NCBI GenBank assembly: GCA_965205855.1
Contig: OZ242184.1
Coordinates: 1,216,001-1,280,000, forward strand
Direction: 5' to 3'
Length of the DNA stretch: 64,000 nt
Origin: Thermodesulfobacteriota bacterium
Lineage (GTDB): Bacteria > Desulfobacterota_D > UBA1144 > Nemesobacterales > Mycalebacteriaceae
Shown here one piece after another: positions 52,739 through 57,726 of this stretch (the first letter of the stretch is position 1; every line of letters starts with the position of its first letter). The position numbers and the translations under genes were made by a program. Under the pieces are notes generated by a model that was given only the letters and a program-made list of their open reading frames with translations, did no database searches and was not told where the DNA came from.

Positions 52739-53491
52739 TCAGTCTTTTTGTTTGTCCGCCGCGCTTTCAGAAGAGCGGGAAAAGTGTATTCCGCACTCTT
52801 TGTCGGAACCGGATTCCCACCACCATCTTCCGGCTCTCGGATCTTCCCCCGGAGCGACCGCGCGCGTGCAGGGAGCGCAGCCGATTGACGGATATCCCAT
52901 GTCGTGCAGTTTGTTATACGGAACGCCGTTTGACCTCACATAGTCCCAGACCTCCTGTTCGGTCCAGTTGACTATCGGGTTGATTTTCAAAATTCCCCCA
53001 TTAACAAGGTCTTTCTCAAATTTGCGTGCCAGAGCCCGCTGTTCGGTCTGATTGCTACGCAGAGAAGTTATCCACCCGTCAACTCCGCGCAGGTATTTGC
53101 GGAGCGGGTTAACCTTCCTCACCCCGCAACACATACGCCTGTTTTCCACGCCCCGGTAGAAAAAGTTTATACCATGCTTAGAGACCATGTCGCCGACCTC
53201 AAGCGCATCGGGAAAAACAACCTCAATGCGCGCGCCGTATTTTTCCCTCACCTGCTCCATCACTTCGAAGGTCTCGGAATTCAGCCGTCCGGTGTCAAGG
53301 GTGAAGATACGCGCGTCCGGTTTCACTTTCATAAGGATGTCTATCAAGACCGTCCCCTGTGCCTGAAAACTCGTGGCGAGCGCGACTTTGGGGTGAAGTT
53401 TTTCAATAGTCCAAGCCAGAACATCCGCGGGATTTTTATCCGCGAACCGCCTGTTCAATTCATCAATTTGCGCCGCTGTAAATTCCATCAT
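52739..53491 (-). CDS. cysH: Adenosine-5'-phosphosulfate (APS/PAPS) reductase, Fe-S type
   Basis: LDTG, CC..RKV.PL, K.NP...W, L...GYPSIGC.PCT, R.GRW, ECGIH. Confidence 0.93.
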   Translation of the reverse strand: MMEFTAAQIDELNRRFADKNPADVLAWTIEKLHPKVALATSFQAQGTVLIDILMKVKPDARIFTLDTGRLNSETFEVMEQVREKYGARIEVVFPDALEVGDMVSKHGINFFYRGVENRRMCCGVRKVNPLRKYLRGVDGWITSLRSNQTEQRALARKFEKDLVNGGILKINPIVNWTEQEVWDYVRSNGVPYNKLHDMGYPSIGCAPCTRAVAPGEDPRAGRWWWESGSDKECGIHFSRSSESAADKQKD

Positions 53492-53495
53492 TTCC

Positions 53496-54473
53496 TTATT
53501 GTAGCACAAACAGCATTGCGGCGAAGTATCCGATTGCCACCGTGAAAAACGGCACCGCGAGCCAGAAAAACGCTATTTTGAGCACATGCCGGTTTTTCGC
53601 CGTTGTGCCAAATCCGTGCTGCGCGCAGGAAAAGCCTATAATTCCCGCAGTTACGATTTCGGTTATTGAAACGGGAATCCCCGCAAGAGACGCAACGATG
53701 ATTATCAGCGCGGCGGTCGCCTCAACGGTTATCGCCCTTATCAGGCATATCTCCGTTATTTCCTTCCCCACGGTTTCAAGAACCCTTCCGCCAAGCACAA
53801 GCGCCCCGACGGCCATTGCCACGCCCGCAAGAAGCGCGCCCGTCGAGGATTGTACAATTCCCAGTCCGACAATCGGGCCCACGGCGTTTGCGGAGTTGTT
53901 CGCGCCCGCGGCAAAAGCAAGAAAAATACCTGAAACCGTTATGCAAAGTTTCAGCACACTGCTGACGCCTTTCTCGGAAAAATTGTCGGCAAGATAGTTG
54001 AGGATTTTGTAATACAAAAACTTGCCCACAAGAAAACCTATAAGCCATGACAAGACCGGCGCAGCAACCCACCAGACAACTATTTCATAAAAACGGGCAT
54101 AGTTGAGAGCCCCGAAGAAAATACCCATGCCCACGATTGAACATACAATGGCATGAGTTGTGGCAACCGGAATTTTTGATATGTTCGCCCACGAAACAAA
54201 AACAAGCGCGATAACAAGCACTATGACCGTGAGAACGGCGTCGTTTGAGATTGTTTCGTGCGGAACCAGACCCTTACCTATTGTTTCCACAACCGGAGCG
54301 CCGGCGAGAATCGCGCCGAGAATCGCAAAAACCGCGATAATCCAAACCGCCTGCCTCTTTGTTCTCGCTCCCGCCCCGTAGGAAGACGCCATCGCGGCGG
54401 CGGAGTTGTTCGCGCCGATATTCACGGCGAGAAATCCTGACAAAACAACGGCGGATATCAAAATCAGTTCCAT
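53496..54473 (-). CDS. PiT-family anion transporter, probably CysP-type sulfate permease
   Basis: Two PiT signatures (NIGANN.A; GANN.AN.VGP), G..V..T.GK, P.S.T; immediately upstream of cysH. Confidence 0.8.
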   Translation of the reverse strand: MELILISAVVLSGFLAVNIGANNSAAAMASSYGAGARTKRQAVWIIAVFAILGAILAGAPVVETIGKGLVPHETISNDAVLTVIVLVIALVFVSWANISKIPVATTHAIVCSIVGMGIFFGALNYARFYEIVVWWVAAPVLSWLIGFLVGKFLYYKILNYLADNFSEKGVSSVLKLCITVSGIFLAFAAGANNSANAVGPIVGLGIVQSSTGALLAGVAMAVGALVLGGRVLETVGKEITEICLIRAITVEATAALIIIVASLAGIPVSITEIVTAGIIGFSCAQHGFGTTAKNRHVLKIAFFWLAVPFFTVAIGYFAAMLFVLQ

Positions 54474-54541
54474 ATCAAAACTCTCTCAAACAAACTGCAA
54501 AGAAAACTCCGGCGCGTTTTCCCCTGTGGTAAGGAAACGCG

Positions 54542-54590
54542 AAAAAAACGCATGTTTTCAATGCCCTGTAAAAAACAGGGGAAAACTGCG
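54542..54590 (-). terminator. Leader-region intrinsic terminator-like hairpin (putative attenuator)
   Basis: Minus strand CGCA-GTTTTC-CCCTGT [T5 loop] ACAGGG-catt-GAAAAC-a-TGCG followed by T7. Confidence 0.7.
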
Positions 54591-54595
54591 CTCAA

Positions 54596-54682
54596 TCACA
54601 TACAACAGGAACAGCACACGCAACCGCAGGAACAGCGGTGGGTGCAAAAAGAGACAAAACAGTTGTAAAACGCATCTGACAT
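54596..54682 (-). CDS. Cys-rich leader peptide MSDAFYNCFVSFCTHRCSCGCVCCSCCM (28 aa, 9 Cys)
   Basis: Translated by hand; ATG 54682 to TGA 54596; below the ORF-track size cutoff; upstream of sulfate assimilation genes. Confidence 0.7.
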   Translation of the reverse strand: MSDAFYNCFVSFCTHRCSCGCVCCSCCM

Positions 54683-54712
54683 TGTTTGCAACTCATCCGA
54701 TTTCAGGAGAAA

Positions 54713-54741
54713 GTAATATGTGGAAAAAAGGGGAAAGTCAA
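54713..54741 (-). promoter_or_regulatory. Putative sigma70 promoter for the leader-pit-cysH transcript
   Basis: TTGACT (54736-54741), 17-nt spacer, TATTAC (54713-54718). Confidence 0.45.
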
Positions 54742-54762
54742 TCATCACAGGCTGAAAAGCGT

Positions 54763-55305
54763 TCACTCAACCAGATCTTTCACATCAAATATACTGAAAA
54801 ACTCAATCCCTTCATCGGAGAAAATTTTGCTTGATTCGGCGCGACTGACAACCGCCATAACCTTTGAAACCTCCACGCCCGCGGCTCTCACCGCTTCAAT
54901 CGCACCCATAACCGAGCCGCCCGTGGTAACAACATCTTCAACCATCACGACGCGGTCTCCTTTCTCCAAATTACCCTCAATCAGTTTCTGCGTCCCGTGG
55001 TTTTTTTCCGCTTTGCGAACTATAAAACCCCGGACATCGGTTCTTTCGCATAATGACAGTATCGCTCCGACTATCGGGTCGGCTCCGAGCGTGGGGCCTC
55101 CAATGGCGTTTGCGTCTTTATCCTTTGAAAACTCGGCAAGAAAAATCGTGGCAATCAGCCGCGCGCCTTCGGGGTGAAGCGTGGTTTTTCTGGCGTCTAT
55201 GTAAAGACTGCTTTTTTTACCCGAAGCAAGGGTGTAATCACCAAAGACAACGGACTGCTCAAGCAGTATGCGACGCAAATCGTCCCTTTCGTTTTTCAAA
55301 TTCAT
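54763..55305 (-). CDS. pyrE: Orotate phosphoribosyltransferase
   Basis: G...LASG..S..Y.D, GG..LGA.P, RK..K.HG, VEDV.TTGGS. Confidence 0.95.
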   Translation of the reverse strand: MNLKNERDDLRRILLEQSVVFGDYTLASGKKSSLYIDARKTTLHPEGARLIATIFLAEFSKDKDANAIGGPTLGADPIVGAILSLCERTDVRGFIVRKAEKNHGTQKLIEGNLEKGDRVVMVEDVVTTGGSVMGAIEAVRAAGVEVSKVMAVVSRAESSKIFSDEGIEFFSIFDVKDLVE

Positions 55306-55397: not shown

Positions 55398-56795
55398 ATG
55401 ACAAACACAAACGCGACAACCGCTCTCGGAGCGGCGGCAACCGTGATGCTCTGGGCTATCACCGCACTTTCGGACAGGTTCGGGAGTTTTCCTCAGGGAC
55501 TTGCGGAAATGCCCGTAATTGAAACAGTCGCCCTTCTTTGCGCCTCGGCGGTTTTCTATCTTGGCGCCGTGCGTTTTGCCGGACGGGAAAGCGGTGCGTT
55601 GCCGTTCGCGCTTGTTTTTGGAATCGGGATTTTGATGAGAGCGGCGGGGCTCTTTGCAAGCCCGGTTCTTGAAGATGATTACTTCAGATACCTATGGGAC
55701 GGCGCGGTCGCGGCAAAGGGAATAAATCCATATCTGTTCTCTCCCTCGGAAGCCGTTACGGGAGAGGCTGGAGACGCTCTTGAAGTGCTCGCGGCGCAGT
55801 CTGGCGAGGTCGTGTGGCGCGTAAACCATCCTTATCTGAAAACAATCTACCCTCCTGCAACGCAGGCTTTTTTTGCCTTATCAAATGTTATCTCGGAGTG
55901 GAGCGTGGGAGTCTGGCGGCTTGTCCTGCTCACGGCGGATGTGGCGACTTTTTTCATTTTACGAGCAATGGGCGGAAATAAAACCAATCCCGTAATCTAC
56001 TGGTGGAATCCGCTTGTCGTCTTTGCCTTTTTTTTCTCATGTCATTTTGACGCGTTGGTGTTCCCGTTTGTTCTCGGCGCGCTCGCGGCGACGAGGAAAA
56101 ATCGCGGGAATCTCGCCGTTTTACTGCTTTCCGTCTCAGTCTCGGTAAAGTTGTGGACGGCGGCGCTGATTGCGCCGCTTGTCCGCGGCGCCGGTGGAGG
56201 CGCGAAAAAAACCCTCGCGCTGATAGCGCTTTTTGCCGCCTCCGCAACAGCGATGCTTTCTCCCCTTCTTTTTTACGGATTGGGTGAAAACTCCGGTCTT
56301 GCCGCTTACGCGGAAAGCTGGGAAAATAACAGCTCGTTTTTCAGACTCAATCTGCTCGCTTCGCGAAACATGGCGGAGTTGGCCGGGTTCCACCCCGGAT
56401 ACGGACAGATAGCGGCAAGGATTTCCACCGCCGTTATAATCACGCTCGGTGCCGCTTACGGTTTTTTCTCAAACAGATGGAAAAGCGATGACACCGCTGG
56501 AAGGTTTCTTTTTGTTTCCGCCCTTGTGTTCCTCGTTCTGCCAACCCAGTTCCCGTGGTACTACTGCTGGATTGTCCCGTTTCTCGCTTTGAGAAAAGAC
56601 GGGGCAAAATGGTCCCTGCTCGTCCTCACCGCTCTTCTTCCGCTCTACTACACAAAGTACCGGATTGAACAGCCGGAAAACGGCGGGCTGTTTGACGGCC
56701 TTATTGTGTGGATTGAATTCGTTCCGGTGTGGATAATGTTGTTTTTTGAACAAATACGAAGCAAAACGGCGGTGAGATTGAAAGATGAGGTTTGA
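55398..56795 (+). CDS. Multi-TM GT-C / GT87 (DUF2029)-like glycosyltransferase
   Basis: EDD.FRY.WDG......NPY..SP, NHP...TIYPP..Q, WNPL, H.D, PWY. Confidence 0.75.
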   Translation: MTNTNATTALGAAATVMLWAITALSDRFGSFPQGLAEMPVIETVALLCASAVFYLGAVRFAGRESGALPFALVFGIGILMRAAGLFASPVLEDDYFRYLWDGAVAAKGINPYLFSPSEAVTGEAGDALEVLAAQSGEVVWRVNHPYLKTIYPPATQAFFALSNVISEWSVGVWRLVLLTADVATFFILRAMGGNKTNPVIYWWNPLVVFAFFFSCHFDALVFPFVLGALAATRKNRGNLAVLLLSVSVSVKLWTAALIAPLVRGAGGGAKKTLALIALFAASATAMLSPLLFYGLGENSGLAAYAESWENNSSFFRLNLLASRNMAELAGFHPGYGQIAARISTAVIITLGAAYGFFSNRWKSDDTAGRFLFVSALVFLVLPTQFPWYYCWIVPFLALRKDGAKWSLLVLTALLPLYYTKYRIEQPENGGLFDGLIVWIEFVPVWIMLFFEQIRSKTAVRLKDEV

Positions 56796-57726
56796 AAAAG
56801 AAATCGCCGCCGCGCTTCCGGCGATCGCGCAAACATGCCTATTGTGCCTGTCCGCGCGACGCAAAGGGTTTGCGGATGCGGAAAAAAAGAAAGACAAAAC
56901 ACCCGTAACTGCAGCGGACTACGCGGCGCAGTTCATACTGACAAAAACCTTGAGAAAAACATTTCCGCGCGACGAGATTGTGGCGGAGGAGTCCCCCGAC
57001 CTTCCCGGCGGAACGGGCGGCGGCATGCTTGCGAAAATTCTGCAACTGCTCCCCGGAGAGAACGGCGGAGATATTCTGGAAACTCTGGGGTGCGGAGCGG
57101 GAAACGCGCACGCCAAAAGATTCTGGACGATTGACCCGATTGACGGAACGGCCGGATTTATAAGGGGCGCGCAGTTTGCGGTCGCGGTCGCTCTGGTTGA
57201 AGAGGGCGAGGTCTCACTCGGATTTCTCGGCTGCCCCGGACTCGGATTTATAATGCATGCCGCGCGCGACCTGGGGCTTTACAAAACCGGTGTTGACGGC
57301 TCCGGAGGAAAAAGGATTTTCCCACAAAAGCCACGCGAGGAGAAAATAGTCCTATGCGAAACAGCGGCCGGAACACCGGACGCATACGGCGTTTCGGGAA
57401 AGATCATACGCGGAGCGGCATCATTGACGGGAAAACGGACAGAGGCAATCACAATGGACGGCCAGTGTAAATATGCTCTTGTCGCGGAGCGGTCGGCGGA
57501 TGTTTTCCTGCGCGTTCCCAACTCCGGAGGGCGGAGGGAGAATATCTGGGACCATGCGGCGGGAGCCGTGATCGCGGGCGAATCGGGAGCAGAGGTCTCT
57601 GATTTTGACGGAGCCGTGCTTGATTTTTCCACAGGCGCGCAACTTGCACGCAACAGGGGAATAGTCGCCGCGGCGCGGGAGATTCACGGTGACATTATAA
57701 ACTCAATACAAAAAGCGGAAATTTGA
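56785..57726 (+). CDS. 3'(2'),5'-bisphosphate nucleotidase (HAL2/CysQ-like, inositol monophosphatase superfamily)
   Basis: K.D.TPVT.ADY, AEE, W..DPIDGT.GF, D.Q.KY, E.IWDHAAG. Confidence 0.88.
   Translation: MRFEKEIAAALPAIAQTCLLCLSARRKGFADAEKKKDKTPVTAADYAAQFILTKTLRKTFPRDEIVAEESPDLPGGTGGGMLAKILQLLPGENGGDILETLGCGAGNAHAKRFWTIDPIDGTAGFIRGAQFAVAVALVEEGEVSLGFLGCPGLGFIMHAARDLGLYKTGVDGSGGKRIFPQKPREEKIVLCETAAGTPDAYGVSGKIIRGAASLTGKRTEAITMDGQCKYALVAERSADVFLRVPNSGGRRENIWDHAAGAVIAGESGAEVSDFDGAVLDFSTGAQLARNRGIVAAAREIHGDIINSIQKAEI

What the first reader, a model, noticed from the sequence alone, without database searches (positions are those of the whole stretch)
54473..54741. Candidate cysteine-sensing leader-peptide attenuator controlling sulfate uptake and reduction
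Seen: the 290-bp gap upstream of the PiT permease and cysH holds, on the minus strand, a promoter-like TTGACT-N17-TATTAC and then an unannotated ORF (54682-54596) MSDAFYNCFVSFCTHRCSCGCVCCSCCM. It has 9 Cys in 28 codons, 7 of them in the last 12. Five nt after its stop is a long hairpin plus U7 (54590-54542). Established: amino-acid attenuators use leader peptides rich in the pathway product; Cys-rich leaders are known before cysteine genes in Actinobacteria; a PiT-family CysP sits in the B. subtilis cysH operon. Inference: ribosome stalling on Cys codons when Cys-tRNA is low lets transcription read through into the sulfate genes. The Cys-codon segment (UUCCUGU) can pair with the ACAGGG arm of the hairpin as an antiterminator. 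I know of no such attenuator described for this kind of lineage.
Basis: partly seen in the sequence, partly recalled or inferred. Interest (0 to 1): 0.88.

Follow-up and report, generated by a model that had tools for sequence, protein, structure and literature searches.

The report
Cysteine-codon leader before sulfate genes
A tiny, conserved reading frame packed with cysteine codons, followed by three conserved RNA hairpins, sits in front of a sulfate-uptake and reduction operon and probably lets the ribosome report cysteine supply, a known kind of switch seen here in a new bacterial lineage.

Summary
This is the densest Cys-codon stretch in all six frames of the 1.4 Mb genome. All 6 of 6 genomes of the genus have an in-frame Cys-rich ORF (5-9 Cys) before the same PiT/CysP-like permease and Fe-S APS reductase (cysH). 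None of the 25 loci examined from other families of the order has one. Three hairpins (P0 inside the ORF, H1, H2) are kept by compensatory changes.

A cysteine-sensing leader is the best reading (about 0.55), but the proposed switch fails. The UUCCUGU:ACAGGG pairing is specific to this genome. Only 3 of 6 species have a U-tract after H1. By footprint geometry, a ribosome stalled on the last Cys codons leaves H1 intact; only a terminating ribosome would melt its base.

Two long-range pairings covary: the ORF's 5' end with the segment before a conserved U-run, and the 5' arm of H1 with the 3' arm of H2. No RNA data exist. The genus has no sigma-54, which appears to drive this operon in some relatives. 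It is a new member of a known kind.

The parts
54713..54741 (-). Sigma-70-type promoter candidate: TTGACT (54741-54736), 17-nt spacer, TATTAC (54718-54713).
   Evidence: Read. TTGACT(T) is invariant in 6 of 6 species. A TAnnnT-like hexamer lies 16-17 nt downstream in the relatives (read by eye). The consensus scan did not flag it. The transcription start is unknown.
54665..54700 (-). 5' UTR and codons 1-6 of the leader ORF: the 5' strand of the candidate long-range helix P1.
   Evidence: Duplex with the segment just 5' of the U-run: cognate mean -11.3 against non-cognate -8.2 kcal/mol, and 3 of 720 permutations do as well. 5' UTR with the U-run: 2 of 720. Against real 41-nt windows of the same loci it is not exceptional: 38-253 of about 740 windows pair as well.
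54596..54682 (-). Leader ORF: 28 codons plus TGA, with 9 Cys codons at positions 8, 13, 17, 19, 21, 23, 24, 26 and 27.
   Evidence: It is conserved in 6 of 6 genus genomes with 5-9 Cys, and the C-terminus is always C-S-(C/R)-C-M-stop. pS exceeds pN in 15 of 15 pairs.
54616..54645 (-). P0: hairpin inside the ORF, codons 13-23.
   Evidence: It folds in 6 of 6 species, with z at or below -2.0 in 4 of 6 (-1.07 to -3.73). Three of its 5 outer pairs show changes on both sides.
54591..54613 (-). Sequence-invariant single-stranded linker: the last five codons, the TGA stop and 4-5 nt up to the base of H1.
   Evidence: The block is nearly invariant in 6 of 6 species. Yet synonymous sites are close to saturation in the neighbouring PiT gene, where only 39 of 200 aa-invariant codons are identical in 5 species.
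54549..54590 (-). H1: long imperfect hairpin that starts 5 nt after the stop.
   Evidence: -18.3 kcal/mol; 0 of 300 shuffles fold as well. It folds in 6 of 6 species and z is at or below -2.4 in 5 of 6 (G002 z +0.26). The apex differs in every species yet stays complementary.
54542..54548 (-). U7 after H1. Together with H1 it looks like an intrinsic terminator.
   Evidence: A U-rich tract follows H1 in 3 of 6 species (G000, G001, G003); the other three have UUUGGAAU, UUUCAGUC and GUCUGCC.
54513..54541 (-). H2: second hairpin.
   Evidence: -12.2 kcal/mol; 3 of 300 shuffles fold as well. z is at or below -2.8 in 4 of 6 species (G005 -1.47, G003 -0.75). Two of its 7 consensus pairs show changes on both sides.
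54488..54512 (-). Unpaired spacer (CCGGAG) followed by a conserved U-rich run (UUUUCUUUG...): the 3' strand of candidate helix P1.
   Evidence: The U-run UUUUKUYUG is present in 6 of 6 species. The spacer between H2 and the run is 5-9 nt in 5 of 6 and 0-1 nt in G001.
53496..54487 (-). Shine-Dalgarno GAGAGAG (54487-54481) and the PiT/CysP-like permease gene (54473-53496).
   Evidence: Pfam PHO4, 2.9e-52. The best NCBIfam match is the CysP sulfate permease model, 228 bits, below its 400-bit cut-off.
52739..53509 (-). cysH, an assimilatory Fe-S type APS reductase. It overlaps the end of PiT by 14 nt.
   Evidence: NF002537 268.5 bits (cut-off 154) and TIGR02055 254.7 bits (cut-off 235.3). CC, CxxC and ECGIH motifs are present. 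PiT and cysH are linked in 28 of the 29 full loci examined, with one gene between them in 5.

Best explanation
This is a ribosome-mediated, cysteine-responsive leader for the PiT(cysP)-cysH operon.

What the sequence shows. A constitutive sigma-70-type promoter would give a leader RNA of roughly 240 nt. The first thing on it is a 28-codon ORF in which 9 codons, 7 of the last 12, need Cys-tRNA(Cys). Three local hairpins follow: P0 inside the ORF, H1 just after the stop, and H2. After H2 comes a conserved U-run, then the PiT ribosome-binding site.

Inferred mechanism. When Cys-tRNA is scarce, ribosomes dwell on the ORF. They stall at the C-terminal cluster, where their footprint covers the invariant single-stranded linker right up to the base of H1. 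They also stall at the early Cys codon (codon 8 in 4 of 6 species), or queue behind the lead ribosome, covering the ORF's 5' end. Ribosome-covered ORF RNA cannot engage the purine-rich segment made of the 3' arm of H2, the spacer and the U-run. That segment then folds locally into H2. In 5 of 6 species H2 sits 5-9 nt from the U-run, so it is a poor terminator, and the polymerase reads into PiT-cysH.

When cysteine is plentiful, or the ORF is not translated, the ORF RNA is bare. Its 5' UTR and first codons pair with that segment right up to and into the U-run (helix P1); in this genome the Cys tract can pair with it as well. This closes the leader with a helix that abuts the U-run, and transcription ends before PiT. 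The bare linker may also become accessible to Rho or RNase E/G.

Shown: the ORF, its conservation, the hairpins and their covariation, the covariation of P1, and the gene context. Inferred: translation of the ORF, stalling, which structure terminates, and the sign of the response. Within the attenuator reading I put about 0.25 on the P1-closure version. The rest is split between protection of the linker from Rho or RNase and an antiterminator I did not find.
For: Uniqueness. This is the only place in the genome with at least 7 Cys codons in 12.

Conservation. An ORF with the same start position, the same TGA stop and 5-9 Cys codons is present in 6 of 6 genus genomes. It is not found upstream of PiT in 25 of 25 loci from other families, whether the start is ATG or ATG/GTG/TTG.

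Coding signature. Lengths are 28, 28, 27, 26, 26 and 28 codons, so all indels are in frame. TGT/TGC, TCA/TCC, GAT/GAC, TTT/TTC and GGT/GGC exchanges occur. pS exceeds pN in 15 of 15 pairs, and the pooled pN/pS is 0.43 in frame against 1.17 and 0.55 in the other two frames.

Cys positions are replaceable. Cys alternates with Arg, Gly, Phe, Ser and His at several aligned positions. This fits a codon counter better than a metal site.

Structure. RNAalifold finds P0, H1 and H2: 32 pairs, 9 with changes on both sides. On the same alignment 91.1% of cells are paired, 9 pairs have double changes against 4.5 +/- 1.6 in shuffles (2 of 500 reach it), and the covariation score is 0.360 against 0.273 (0 of 500). 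Slid controls reach at most 0.215.

RNA-level constraint. The last five codons, the stop and the H1 base are invariant, while only 39 of 200 aa-invariant PiT codons are identical in 5 species.

Long-range pairing. In an all-against-all test of 45 segment pairs, only five stand out (mean z at or below -1.9): the three hairpins, the 5' region with the spacer/U-run, and the 5' arm of H1 with the 3' arm of H2. Cognate against non-cognate permutations give codons 1-6 with the pre-U segment 3 of 720, 5' UTR with the U-run 2 of 720, H1 5' arm with H2 3' arm 10 of 720, and H1 as positive control 6 of 720. Thirteen other pairs, H2's own arms among them (127 of 720), give 66-641 of 720.

Context. cysH is a true assimilatory APS reductase. 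PiT and cysH are linked across the order. Sigma-54 was found in 0 of 6 genus genomes against 13 of 15 others, and a sigma-54-type motif lies upstream of PiT in 8 of 25 other loci and 0 of 5 genus loci. The genus therefore needed a new way to regulate this operon.

Precedent. Cys-rich leader ORFs regulate cysteine genes in mycobacteria (bioRxiv 10.1101/834739: abstract, section 6 and Discussion read). They are predicted in other Actinobacteria (PMC1262725, passages) and before cysS in Rhodobacterales (PMC8632094, passages).
Against: There is no expression evidence of any kind.

Sign problem. By footprint geometry (recalled values), a ribosome waiting at the last Cys codon ends 1-2 nt before H1, so H1 plus U7 would form under starvation. 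Only a terminating ribosome would melt the H1 base. In the three species with a U-tract after H1, this predicts termination when cysteine is low.

No classical antiterminator was found. The 3' arm of H1 with the 5' arm of H2 has mean z -0.14. The Cys tract with the 3' arm of H1 has +0.18. The Cys tract with the PiT Shine-Dalgarno region has +1.39.

P1 was picked after looking at the data. It is not exceptional against real sequence windows: 5-34% of windows pair as well.

Equilibrium folding with ribosome masks gave no consistent switch across the six species. Only G000 shows a clear effect: H2 probability rises from 0.02 to 0.62-0.66 when the Cys tract is masked.

The leader's Shine-Dalgarno sequence is weak and distant. 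Non-Cys residues (S2, D3, F5, S11, F12) are also conserved in most species, so a peptide function is not excluded. There are only six related sequences, so all covariation counts are small. The pathway looks incomplete: no ATP sulfurylase (PF01747, CysD) was found in the genome.
Confidence: 0.55

Rival explanations
1. The ORF encodes a real Cys-rich micropeptide of 26-28 aa that is the first cistron of the operon, for example a metal- or sulfur-binding or membrane-associated partner of the permease. On this reading the hairpins are intercistronic stability or stoichiometry elements.
For: pN is below pS in 15 of 15 pairs. Several non-Cys residues (S2, D3, F5, S11, F12) and the C-terminal C-S-(C/R)-C-M are conserved. 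The N-terminal half is hydrophobic.
Against: The Cys count varies from 5 to 9, and individual Cys positions are replaced by Arg, Gly, Phe, Ser or His, which is unlike a metal-binding site. The conserved C-terminal codons are also invariant at synonymous sites and past the stop, which points to an RNA-level constraint. There is no Pfam match. No such ORF precedes the same operon in 25 of 25 loci from other families. The frame-2 control also gives pN/pS 0.55, so the coding signal is weak.
Confidence: 0.15
2. It is an inverse, coupling-type attenuator like pyrBI or pyrE. Only a ribosome that reaches the stop codon in step with the polymerase melts the base of H1 and suppresses termination. The operon would then be ON when the Cys-rich ORF is translated fast and OFF when Cys-tRNA is scarce or translation fails.
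For: Geometry. The spacing from the stop codon to the base of H1 is conserved at 4-6 nt in 6 of 6 species. A terminating ribosome would cover the first 4-6 nt of H1, while a ribosome at the last Cys codon would not (footprint values recalled). H1 plus U7 is a canonical-looking terminator in 3 of 6 species. With a mask at the stop codon, the H1 pairing probability falls in all 6 species, for example 0.66 to 0.32 in G000 and 0.57 to 0.10 in G003.
Against: The sign makes no sense for sulfate uptake and APS reduction: it would be a positive feedback that shuts assimilation off when cysteine is lacking. The U-tract after H1 is missing in 3 of 6 species. The model gives no role to P0, H2, the U-run or the covarying long-range pairs.
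Confidence: 0.1
3. The structured leader works without the ORF, for instance as a protein- or metabolite-binding 5' UTR, or simply as terminators for read-through from the upstream gene. The Cys-rich frame would be a by-product of a UG/UC-rich RNA.
For: The three hairpins and the long-range pairs covary whatever the coding. Many of the synonymous changes are U/C transitions, which are also neutral opposite G in a helix. In this genome no terminator lies between the pyrE-like gene and the leader.
Against: Start codon, frame, stop codon and in-frame indels are all kept in 6 of 6 species. This is the genome's densest Cys-codon run, and it sits exactly in front of cysteine-pathway genes. No Rfam family matches. 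The upstream neighbour differs among congeners while the leader stays with PiT.
Confidence: 0.1

Closest known systems
Polycysteine leaderless short-ORF attenuators of mycobacterial cysteine operons (Ms5788A type; bioRxiv 10.1101/834739)
   Same: A short ORF with a run of Cys codons near its stop, placed in front of cysteine-metabolism genes. Ribosome dwell on the Cys codons is read as cysteine supply. Long-range pairing of ORF RNA with a downstream segment gives the OFF state.
   Different: In mycobacteria the mRNA is leaderless, and the Cys tract itself pairs with the Shine-Dalgarno region of the next gene, which is translational control. Here a 5' UTR is predicted, and the Cys tract does not pair with the PiT Shine-Dalgarno region (mean z +1.39). 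There are also three covarying hairpins and U-runs. The sequences are unrelated and the phylum is different.
Classical leader-peptide transcription attenuators (trp, his, phe and thr operons of Proteobacteria; described from recall)
   Same: A leader ORF enriched in codons for the pathway's end product, followed by hairpins and U-tracts before the first structural gene.
   Different: No pairing of the 2:3 antiterminator type was found. The regulatory codons lie in a single-stranded linker and in P0, not in a strand that pairs with the next segment. A stalled ribosome would not occlude the first terminator-like hairpin.
uORFC-8-2 motif upstream of cysS in Rhodobacterales (PMC8632094)
   Same: A predicted uORF with conserved Cys codons, two stems and a terminal U-run, read as ribosome-mediated attenuation.
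   Different: That motif has two tandem Cys codons rather than 5-9. It controls the tRNA synthetase gene, not sulfate assimilation. It belongs to a different phylum, and no sequence or Rfam relation was found.
Stalled-ribosome protection from Rho (tnaC, speFL and mgtL types; described from recall)
   Same: A ribosome arrested near the end of a short ORF covers the RNA next to the stop codon. Here that RNA is the invariant linker, and Rho is encoded in the genome.
   Different: No C-rich, G-poor rut site is evident. Stalling would come from hungry codons, not from an arrest peptide. This was not tested here.

Membership tests
Leader-peptide (ribosome-mediated) transcription attenuator | A short ORF with start and stop codons in the 5' leader, conserved among relatives. 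| tested here: met
   6 of 6 genus genomes have it, at the same start position and with the same TGA stop, and all indels are in frame.
Leader-peptide (ribosome-mediated) transcription attenuator | The ORF is enriched in codons for the amino acid made by the regulated pathway. | tested here: met
   5-9 Cys in 26-28 codons in 6 of 6 species. This is the genome's only window with 7 Cys codons in 12. The downstream genes are a CysP-like permease and an APS reductase.
Leader-peptide (ribosome-mediated) transcription attenuator | An intrinsic terminator (hairpin directly followed by a U-tract) lies between the ORF and the first gene. | tested here: inconclusive
   H1 plus a U-tract occurs in 3 of 6 species. 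The U-run after H2 occurs in 6 of 6, but it directly abuts H2 only in G001. The simple terminator scan did not flag either one.
Leader-peptide (ribosome-mediated) transcription antiterminator logic | A mutually exclusive antiterminator forms when the ribosome stalls on the regulatory codons. | tested here: not met
The 3' arm of H1 with the 5' arm of H2, and the Cys tract with the 3' arm of H1, are not better than shuffles. The alternative pairs that do covary (P1, and the H1 5' arm with the H2 3' arm) do not fit the classical scheme.
Leader-peptide (ribosome-mediated) transcription attenuator | Expression responds to the amino acid and to mutation of the regulatory codons. | not testable with these tools
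   No RNA run is listed for this sequence.
Mycobacterial polycysteine leaderless sORF translational attenuator | [quoted passage not shown] | tested here: not met
   Cys tract with the PiT Shine-Dalgarno region: mean -2.5 kcal/mol, z from +0.9 to +1.6 in 6 of 6 species.
Mycobacterial polycysteine leaderless sORF translational attenuator | The ORF is leaderless, with the transcript starting at the start codon. | tested here: inconclusive
   The conserved -35/-10 candidate would place the start about 25 nt upstream of the ATG, but the transcription start is unknown.
Any curated Rfam family | A match at or above the family's gathering score. | tested here: not met
   0 matches over the whole window. 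The best sub-threshold match in 54300-54900 scores 16.7 bits against a 76-bit threshold.

The most novel reading that the evidence does not exclude
The leader may be a de novo evolved sensor of general sulfur status, acquired after the genus lost sigma-54, and it may work in an unusual way.

1. It may read more than Cys-tRNA charging. 46-61% of its codons start with U (Cys, Phe, Ser-UCN, Tyr), against about 15% in the genome's genes, and 30-42% of its non-Cys codons do. These are the codons whose tRNAs carry the sulfur-containing ms2i6A37 modification (a recalled fact). miaA and miaB are both present in the genome.

2. Its output may be set by ribosome occupancy of the ORF deciding whether a roughly 190-nt-span helix forms. 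That helix would join the leader's own ribosome-binding site and first codons to the segment abutting the U-run, closing the leader as a long-range intrinsic terminator.
Probability: 0.12. Interest if true: 0.75.

Novelty: new member of a known kind. Interest (0 to 1): 0.5.

Why it matters
Amino-acid-sensing leader peptides are textbook for Trp, His, Phe, Thr, Leu and Ile/Val. For cysteine, the held literature shows them demonstrated only in mycobacteria and predicted in a few other groups.

This would be an independent origin in another phylum (two congeners are titled Thermodesulfobacteriota in their records). It controls sulfate uptake and APS reduction, and it seems to have replaced a sigma-54-dependent promoter in a lineage of small genomes (1.2-1.6 Mb) that has no sigma-54. 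That makes it a clean natural example of a protein-based regulatory circuit being swapped for a cheap ribosome-based one during genome reduction.

The leader is also a useful test case. Its geometry does not fit the classical stalled-ribosome/antiterminator scheme, so working out its sign and mechanism could reveal another way ribosome position is converted into gene expression.

Tried and rejected
**Database and family searches**
- Rfam: no family at gathering score in the window, and only chance-level hits around the leader.
- Pfam on the peptide: nothing.

**Searches for more copies of the leader**
- A degenerate pattern scan of genome contigs gave 48 stretches. Only 2 (L046, L065) are the leader, both congeners already held; the other 46 are chance matches.
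- The metagenome scan gave 12 stretches, of which 1 (L090) is the leader and is the same as G003.
- The sample therefore stays at six sequences.

**Expression data**
- No RNA holder is listed.
- Laying contigs of 4 runs gave only identical fragments and no variants.

**Readings rejected**
- Selenocysteine or read-through of the TGA, with H1 as a SECIS-like element. The frame after TGA stays open for 43 codons in G000 but closes after 12 codons in G005 and 8 in G004.
- An antisense gene across the leader. Every antisense frame has at least 2 stops in every species, and there is no Pfam hit.

**Searches that found nothing**
- Other Cys-rich leaders in the genome: none before the sulfite-reductase-like gene or the two cysK-like genes.
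- Other amino-acid leader ORFs from which to learn the local grammar: a crude scan gave no convincing case.

**Modelling and pairings not supported**
- Equilibrium folding with ribosome masks showed no consistent change across species in PiT ribosome-binding-site accessibility, in H2, or in the pairing next to the U-run.
- These pairings were no better than shuffles: the Cys tract with the PiT Shine-Dalgarno region, the 3' arm of H1 with the 5' arm of H2, the 3' arm of P0 with the 3' arm of H1, and the U-run with the Shine-Dalgarno region.
- The Cys tract with the 3' arm of H2 is strong in G000 and G005 only.
- A possible helix between codons 6-7 and codons -3/-2 of the ORF showed one A-U to G-C exchange by eye. 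It was not tested further.
Full report
**1. The observation**

- TTGACT lies at 54741-54736, followed by 17 nt and TATTAC at 54718-54713.
- The ORF runs from ATG at 54682 to TGA at 54598-54596 and encodes MSDAFYNCFVSFCTHRCSCGCVCCSCCM: 9 Cys in 28 codons, 7 in the last 12.
- Five nucleotides after the stop an imperfect hairpin begins (H1, 54590-54549). U7 follows it at 54548-54542.
- The flanking genes are a pyrE-like phosphoribosyltransferase upstream (stop at 54763), then PiT (54473-53496) and cysH (53509-52739), all on the minus strand.

The Cys density is not chance. Over all six frames of the 1,401,274-bp genome, stop-free 12-codon windows with at least 7 Cys codons occur twice. Both overlap inside this ORF. 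Windows with exactly 6 Cys codons number seven, two of them here.

The simple consensus scan did not flag the promoter or the hairpin. The -10 hexamer ends in C, and the hairpin has a bulge and an internal loop.

**2. What the genes are**

- cysH passes the NCBIfam models for phosphoadenylyl-sulfate reductase and for thioredoxin-dependent APS reductase. It carries the CC, CxxC and ECGIH motifs of the Fe-S type.
- The permease is PHO4/PiT family. Its best NCBIfam match is the CysP sulfate permease model, but below that model's cut-off.
- PiT followed by cysH is conserved in 28 of the 29 full loci examined in the order. In five of them one gene lies between the two. In at least three genomes that gene is an ATP sulfurylase.
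- The operon therefore belongs to assimilatory sulfate reduction.

**3. Conservation of the ORF**

The genome's genus holds six species-level genomes of 1.2-1.6 Mb. All six carry a Cys-rich ORF at the same place. One has a GTG start, and one was recovered from a contig end.

The six peptides are:
- MSDAFYNCFVSFCTHRCSCGCVCCSCCM
- VSDAFNSCFFSFCARRHSRGCACCSCCM
- MSDALYSFFISFRAARFCGCARCSCCM
- MSDTFNNCFVSFCAPVCGCVRCSCCM
- MSRNFDICSVSFGARLCGCAPCSCCM
- MSCTFNSSCVSSHAPAFFRVGACCSRCM

They hold 9, 7, 5, 7, 6 and 5 Cys. All end in C-S-(C/R)-C-M and a TGA stop.

The coding signature is present but modest.
- Length differences are whole codons.
- Synonymous exchanges are frequent. pS exceeds pN in 15 of 15 pairs.
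- The pooled pN/pS is 0.43 in frame, against 1.17 and 0.55 in the other two frames. This supports the frame only weakly.
- Individual Cys positions are replaced by Arg, Gly, Phe, Ser or His in one species or another.

None of the 25 loci from the seven other families of the order has a Cys-enriched small ORF in the 500 nt before PiT, whatever the start codon. Pattern scans of the genome and metagenome collections returned only congeners already in hand. Two of them are titled Thermodesulfobacteriota bacterium.

**4. RNA structure**

RNAalifold on the six leaders finds three local hairpins: P0 inside the ORF (codons 13-23; window 54645-54616), H1, and H2 (54541-54513). Together they have 32 pairs, 9 with changes on both sides.

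Counting the same structure gives:
- 91.1% of cells paired;
- 9 pairs with double changes, against 4.5 +/- 1.6 in shuffles (2 of 500 reach it);
- a covariation score of 0.360 against 0.273 (0 of 500 reach it);
- slid controls of at most 0.215.

Taken singly, the hairpins beat dinucleotide shuffles in most species but not all:

| Hairpin | Range of z | Species passing |
|---|---|---|
| P0 | -1.07 to -3.73 | 4 of 6 at or below -2.0 |
| H1 | +0.26 to -4.37 | 5 of 6 at or below -2.4 (G002 fails) |
| H2 | -0.75 to -3.24 | 4 of 6 at or below -2.8 |

The apex of H1 differs in every species yet stays complementary.

Between P0 and H1 lies a 23-nt stretch that is single-stranded in this fold: the last five codons, the TGA stop and 4-5 nt. 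Together with the 5' base of H1, it is nearly invariant in all six species. In the adjacent PiT gene, by contrast, only 39 of 200 amino-acid-invariant codons are identical in five species. Something beyond coding therefore constrains this block.

After H1, a U-tract is present in 3 of 6 species. After H2, a U-run (UUUUKUYUG) is present in 6 of 6, but it is separated from H2 by 5-9 unpaired nucleotides in 5 of 6.

**5.

- The proposed antiterminator strand (UUCCUGU) would pair with the apex arm ACAGGG of H1. That arm exists only in this genome.
- Across species, the Cys tract against the 3' arm of H1 is no better than shuffles.
- The geometry is wrong. I used a leading edge about 12 nt beyond the first base of the A-site codon; this value is recalled from ribosome toeprint and profiling work, not measured here. 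A ribosome waiting for Cys-tRNA at the last Cys codon would then end at stop+7, while H1 starts at stop+8 or +9. H1 would form during starvation, and only a ribosome sitting on the stop codon would open its base.
- Masked folding agrees on the second point. H1 pairing falls with a mask at the stop in all six species and is essentially unchanged with a mask at the last Cys codon in five; in G002, whose H1 is weak throughout, it falls from 0.18 to 0.11.

Taken literally, H1 plus U7 would switch the operon off when cysteine is low. I keep that inverse reading as a rival, but I think it unlikely for an assimilation operon.

**6. What else pairs**

An all-against-all duplex test used ten segments, giving 45 pairs, each scored in six species against shuffles. 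Only five pairs have a mean z at or below -1.9:
- the three hairpins;
- the 5' region of the leader (5' UTR and first codons) with the spacer and U-run after H2 (I call this P1);
- the 5' arm of H1 with the 3' arm of H2.

A cognate against non-cognate permutation test then asked whether each species' own partner fits better than another species' partner.

| Pair | Permutations as good as cognate (of 720) |
|---|---|
| Codons 1-6 with the 14 nt before the U-run | 3 |
| 5' UTR with the U-run | 2 |
| H1 5' arm with H2 3' arm | 10 |
| H1, positive control | 6 |
| H2's own arms | 127 |
| Twelve other pairs | 66 to 641 |

Species-specific matches are visible by eye: UCCG with CGGA, UCCGACA with UGUCGGA, CCCG with CGGG, and CCUGC with GCGGG.

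There are cautions. I chose these segments after seeing the data. Against real 41-nt windows from the same loci, P1 is only in the best 5-34%. Equilibrium folding with ribosome masks gives no uniform switch. The exception is this genome, where masking the Cys tract raises the H2 probability from 0.02 to 0.62-0.66.

**7. Most likely mechanism**

I read the element as a ribosome-mediated cysteine sensor with confidence of about 0.55.

The version I favour has the biologically sensible sign. Ribosomes that dwell on the ORF keep ORF RNA away from the segment formed by the 3' arm of H2, the spacer and the U-run. They dwell in two places:
- at the C-terminal Cys cluster, covering the invariant linker;
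- at the early Cys codon (codon 8 in 4 of 6 species; codons 3 and 9 in a fifth), or as queued ribosomes, covering the 5' end.

That segment then folds into H2, which does not abut the U-run, and transcription continues.

A bare ORF lets its 5' end close the leader by pairing up to and into the U-run. In this genome the Cys tract can do so as well. The result is a terminator-like helix spanning about 190 nt.

Other routes with the same sign are possible. The invariant linker is exactly what a ribosome at the last Cys codons would cover. It could be an entry site for Rho (present) or for RNase E/G (present), as in known stalled-ribosome protection systems (recalled).

None of these steps is shown. 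Translation, stalling, the terminating structure and the sign of the response are all inferred.

**8. Evolutionary context**

- Sigma-54 was found in 0 of 6 genus genomes and in 13 of 15 other genomes of the order.
- A sigma-54-type motif (TGGCAY-N5-TTGCW; consensus recalled) lies 60-85 nt before PiT in 8 of 25 loci from other families and in 0 of 5 genus loci. It occurs nowhere else in about 214 kb of the loci on both strands.
- The genus thus appears to have replaced an activator-dependent promoter by a sigma-70-type promoter plus this leader.
- The pathway looks incomplete in this genome. Family searches found no ATP sulfurylase domain, CysD, dsrA or clear CysE. They did find a sulfite-reductase-like gene and two cysK-like genes. 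The source of APS is unexplained.

**9. Comparison with what is known**

- Cys-rich leader ORFs are demonstrated in Mycobacterium smegmatis, where the Cys tract pairs with the next gene's ribosome-binding site (bioRxiv 10.1101/834739: abstract, section 6 and Discussion read).
- They are predicted before cys or cbs genes in several Actinobacteria, without terminators (PMC1262725, passages).
- They are predicted before cysS in Rhodobacterales (PMC8632094, passages).
- Three full-text searches found nothing for this lineage or for cysH/sulfate permease leaders of this type. The library does not hold most subscription-journal papers, and supplements were not consulted.

The element is therefore a new, independently evolved member of a known kind. 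It fails the defining test of the mycobacterial class (pairing with the Shine-Dalgarno region) and the classical antiterminator test, so its mechanism may differ.

**10. Verdict**

The finding is real, conserved and probably regulatory. The specific switch first proposed is not supported. The mechanism and even the sign of the response need experiments. Interest 0.5.

Noticed in passing
L008, L010, L016, L023, L025, L026, L029, L030 (positions about 1415-1438 of the oriented loci); genomes G000-G005: A sigma-54-type promoter motif (TGGCAY-N5-TTGCW) lies 60-85 nt upstream of PiT in 8 of 25 loci from other families and in none of the genus loci. rpoN was found in 13 of 15 other genomes but in 0 of 6 of the genus.
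   Followed up: partly
L008, L016, L023, L026, about 100 nt upstream of the sigma-54 motif: A shared TGTAACA...ATATACAG-like element, seen by eye, could be the binding site of an enhancer-binding protein.
   Followed up: no
G010:C2:61252-61881, G011:C8:62995-63627, G017:C5:601214-601846; loci L020, L023, L025, L027, L028: In some families an ATP sulfurylase gene sits between PiT and cysH, giving PiT-sat-cysH. It was not found in any of the six genus genomes, nor in 10 of the 15 other genomes searched.
   Followed up: partly
whole genome G000: Family searches found no ATP sulfurylase (PF01747), CysD, dsrA or clear CysE. They did find a NIR_SIR sulfite-reductase-like gene at 1162455-1164164 and two cysK-like genes. 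How APS is made for CysH is unexplained.
   Followed up: partly
G000:C1 about 386310-386510, upstream of the cysK-like gene at 386513: A small ORF with a TusA/SirA-like CPxP motif (MPEKADQFIDITDEVCPMT...) lies directly before a cysK-like gene.
   Followed up: no
window 54464-54595 (-): The frame behind the leader's TGA stays open for 43 codons in this genome, past the PiT start. It closes after 12 and 8 codons in two congeners, so it is not a conserved extension.
   Followed up: yes
window 54596-54682 (-) and the five orthologues: 46-61% of leader codons begin with U (Cys, Phe, Ser-UCN, Tyr), counted by hand. The share is 15% in long open frames of the genome, 18% in PiT and 17% in cysH. miaA and miaB are present.
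   Followed up: partly
window 55398-56795 (+) and 56785-57726 (+): A 465-aa ORF with no Pfam match is transcribed divergently from the pyrE-like gene. An inositol-monophosphatase-family gene follows it. CysQ-type PAP phosphatases belong to that family (recalled).
   Followed up: no
G000:C1 490675-490773, 495256-495354, 555873-555971 (+): Three near-identical copies of a 32-codon frame (MSMRC.LCPPGSPL...) turned up in the Cys-rich ORF scan. This suggests a repeated element.
   Followed up: no
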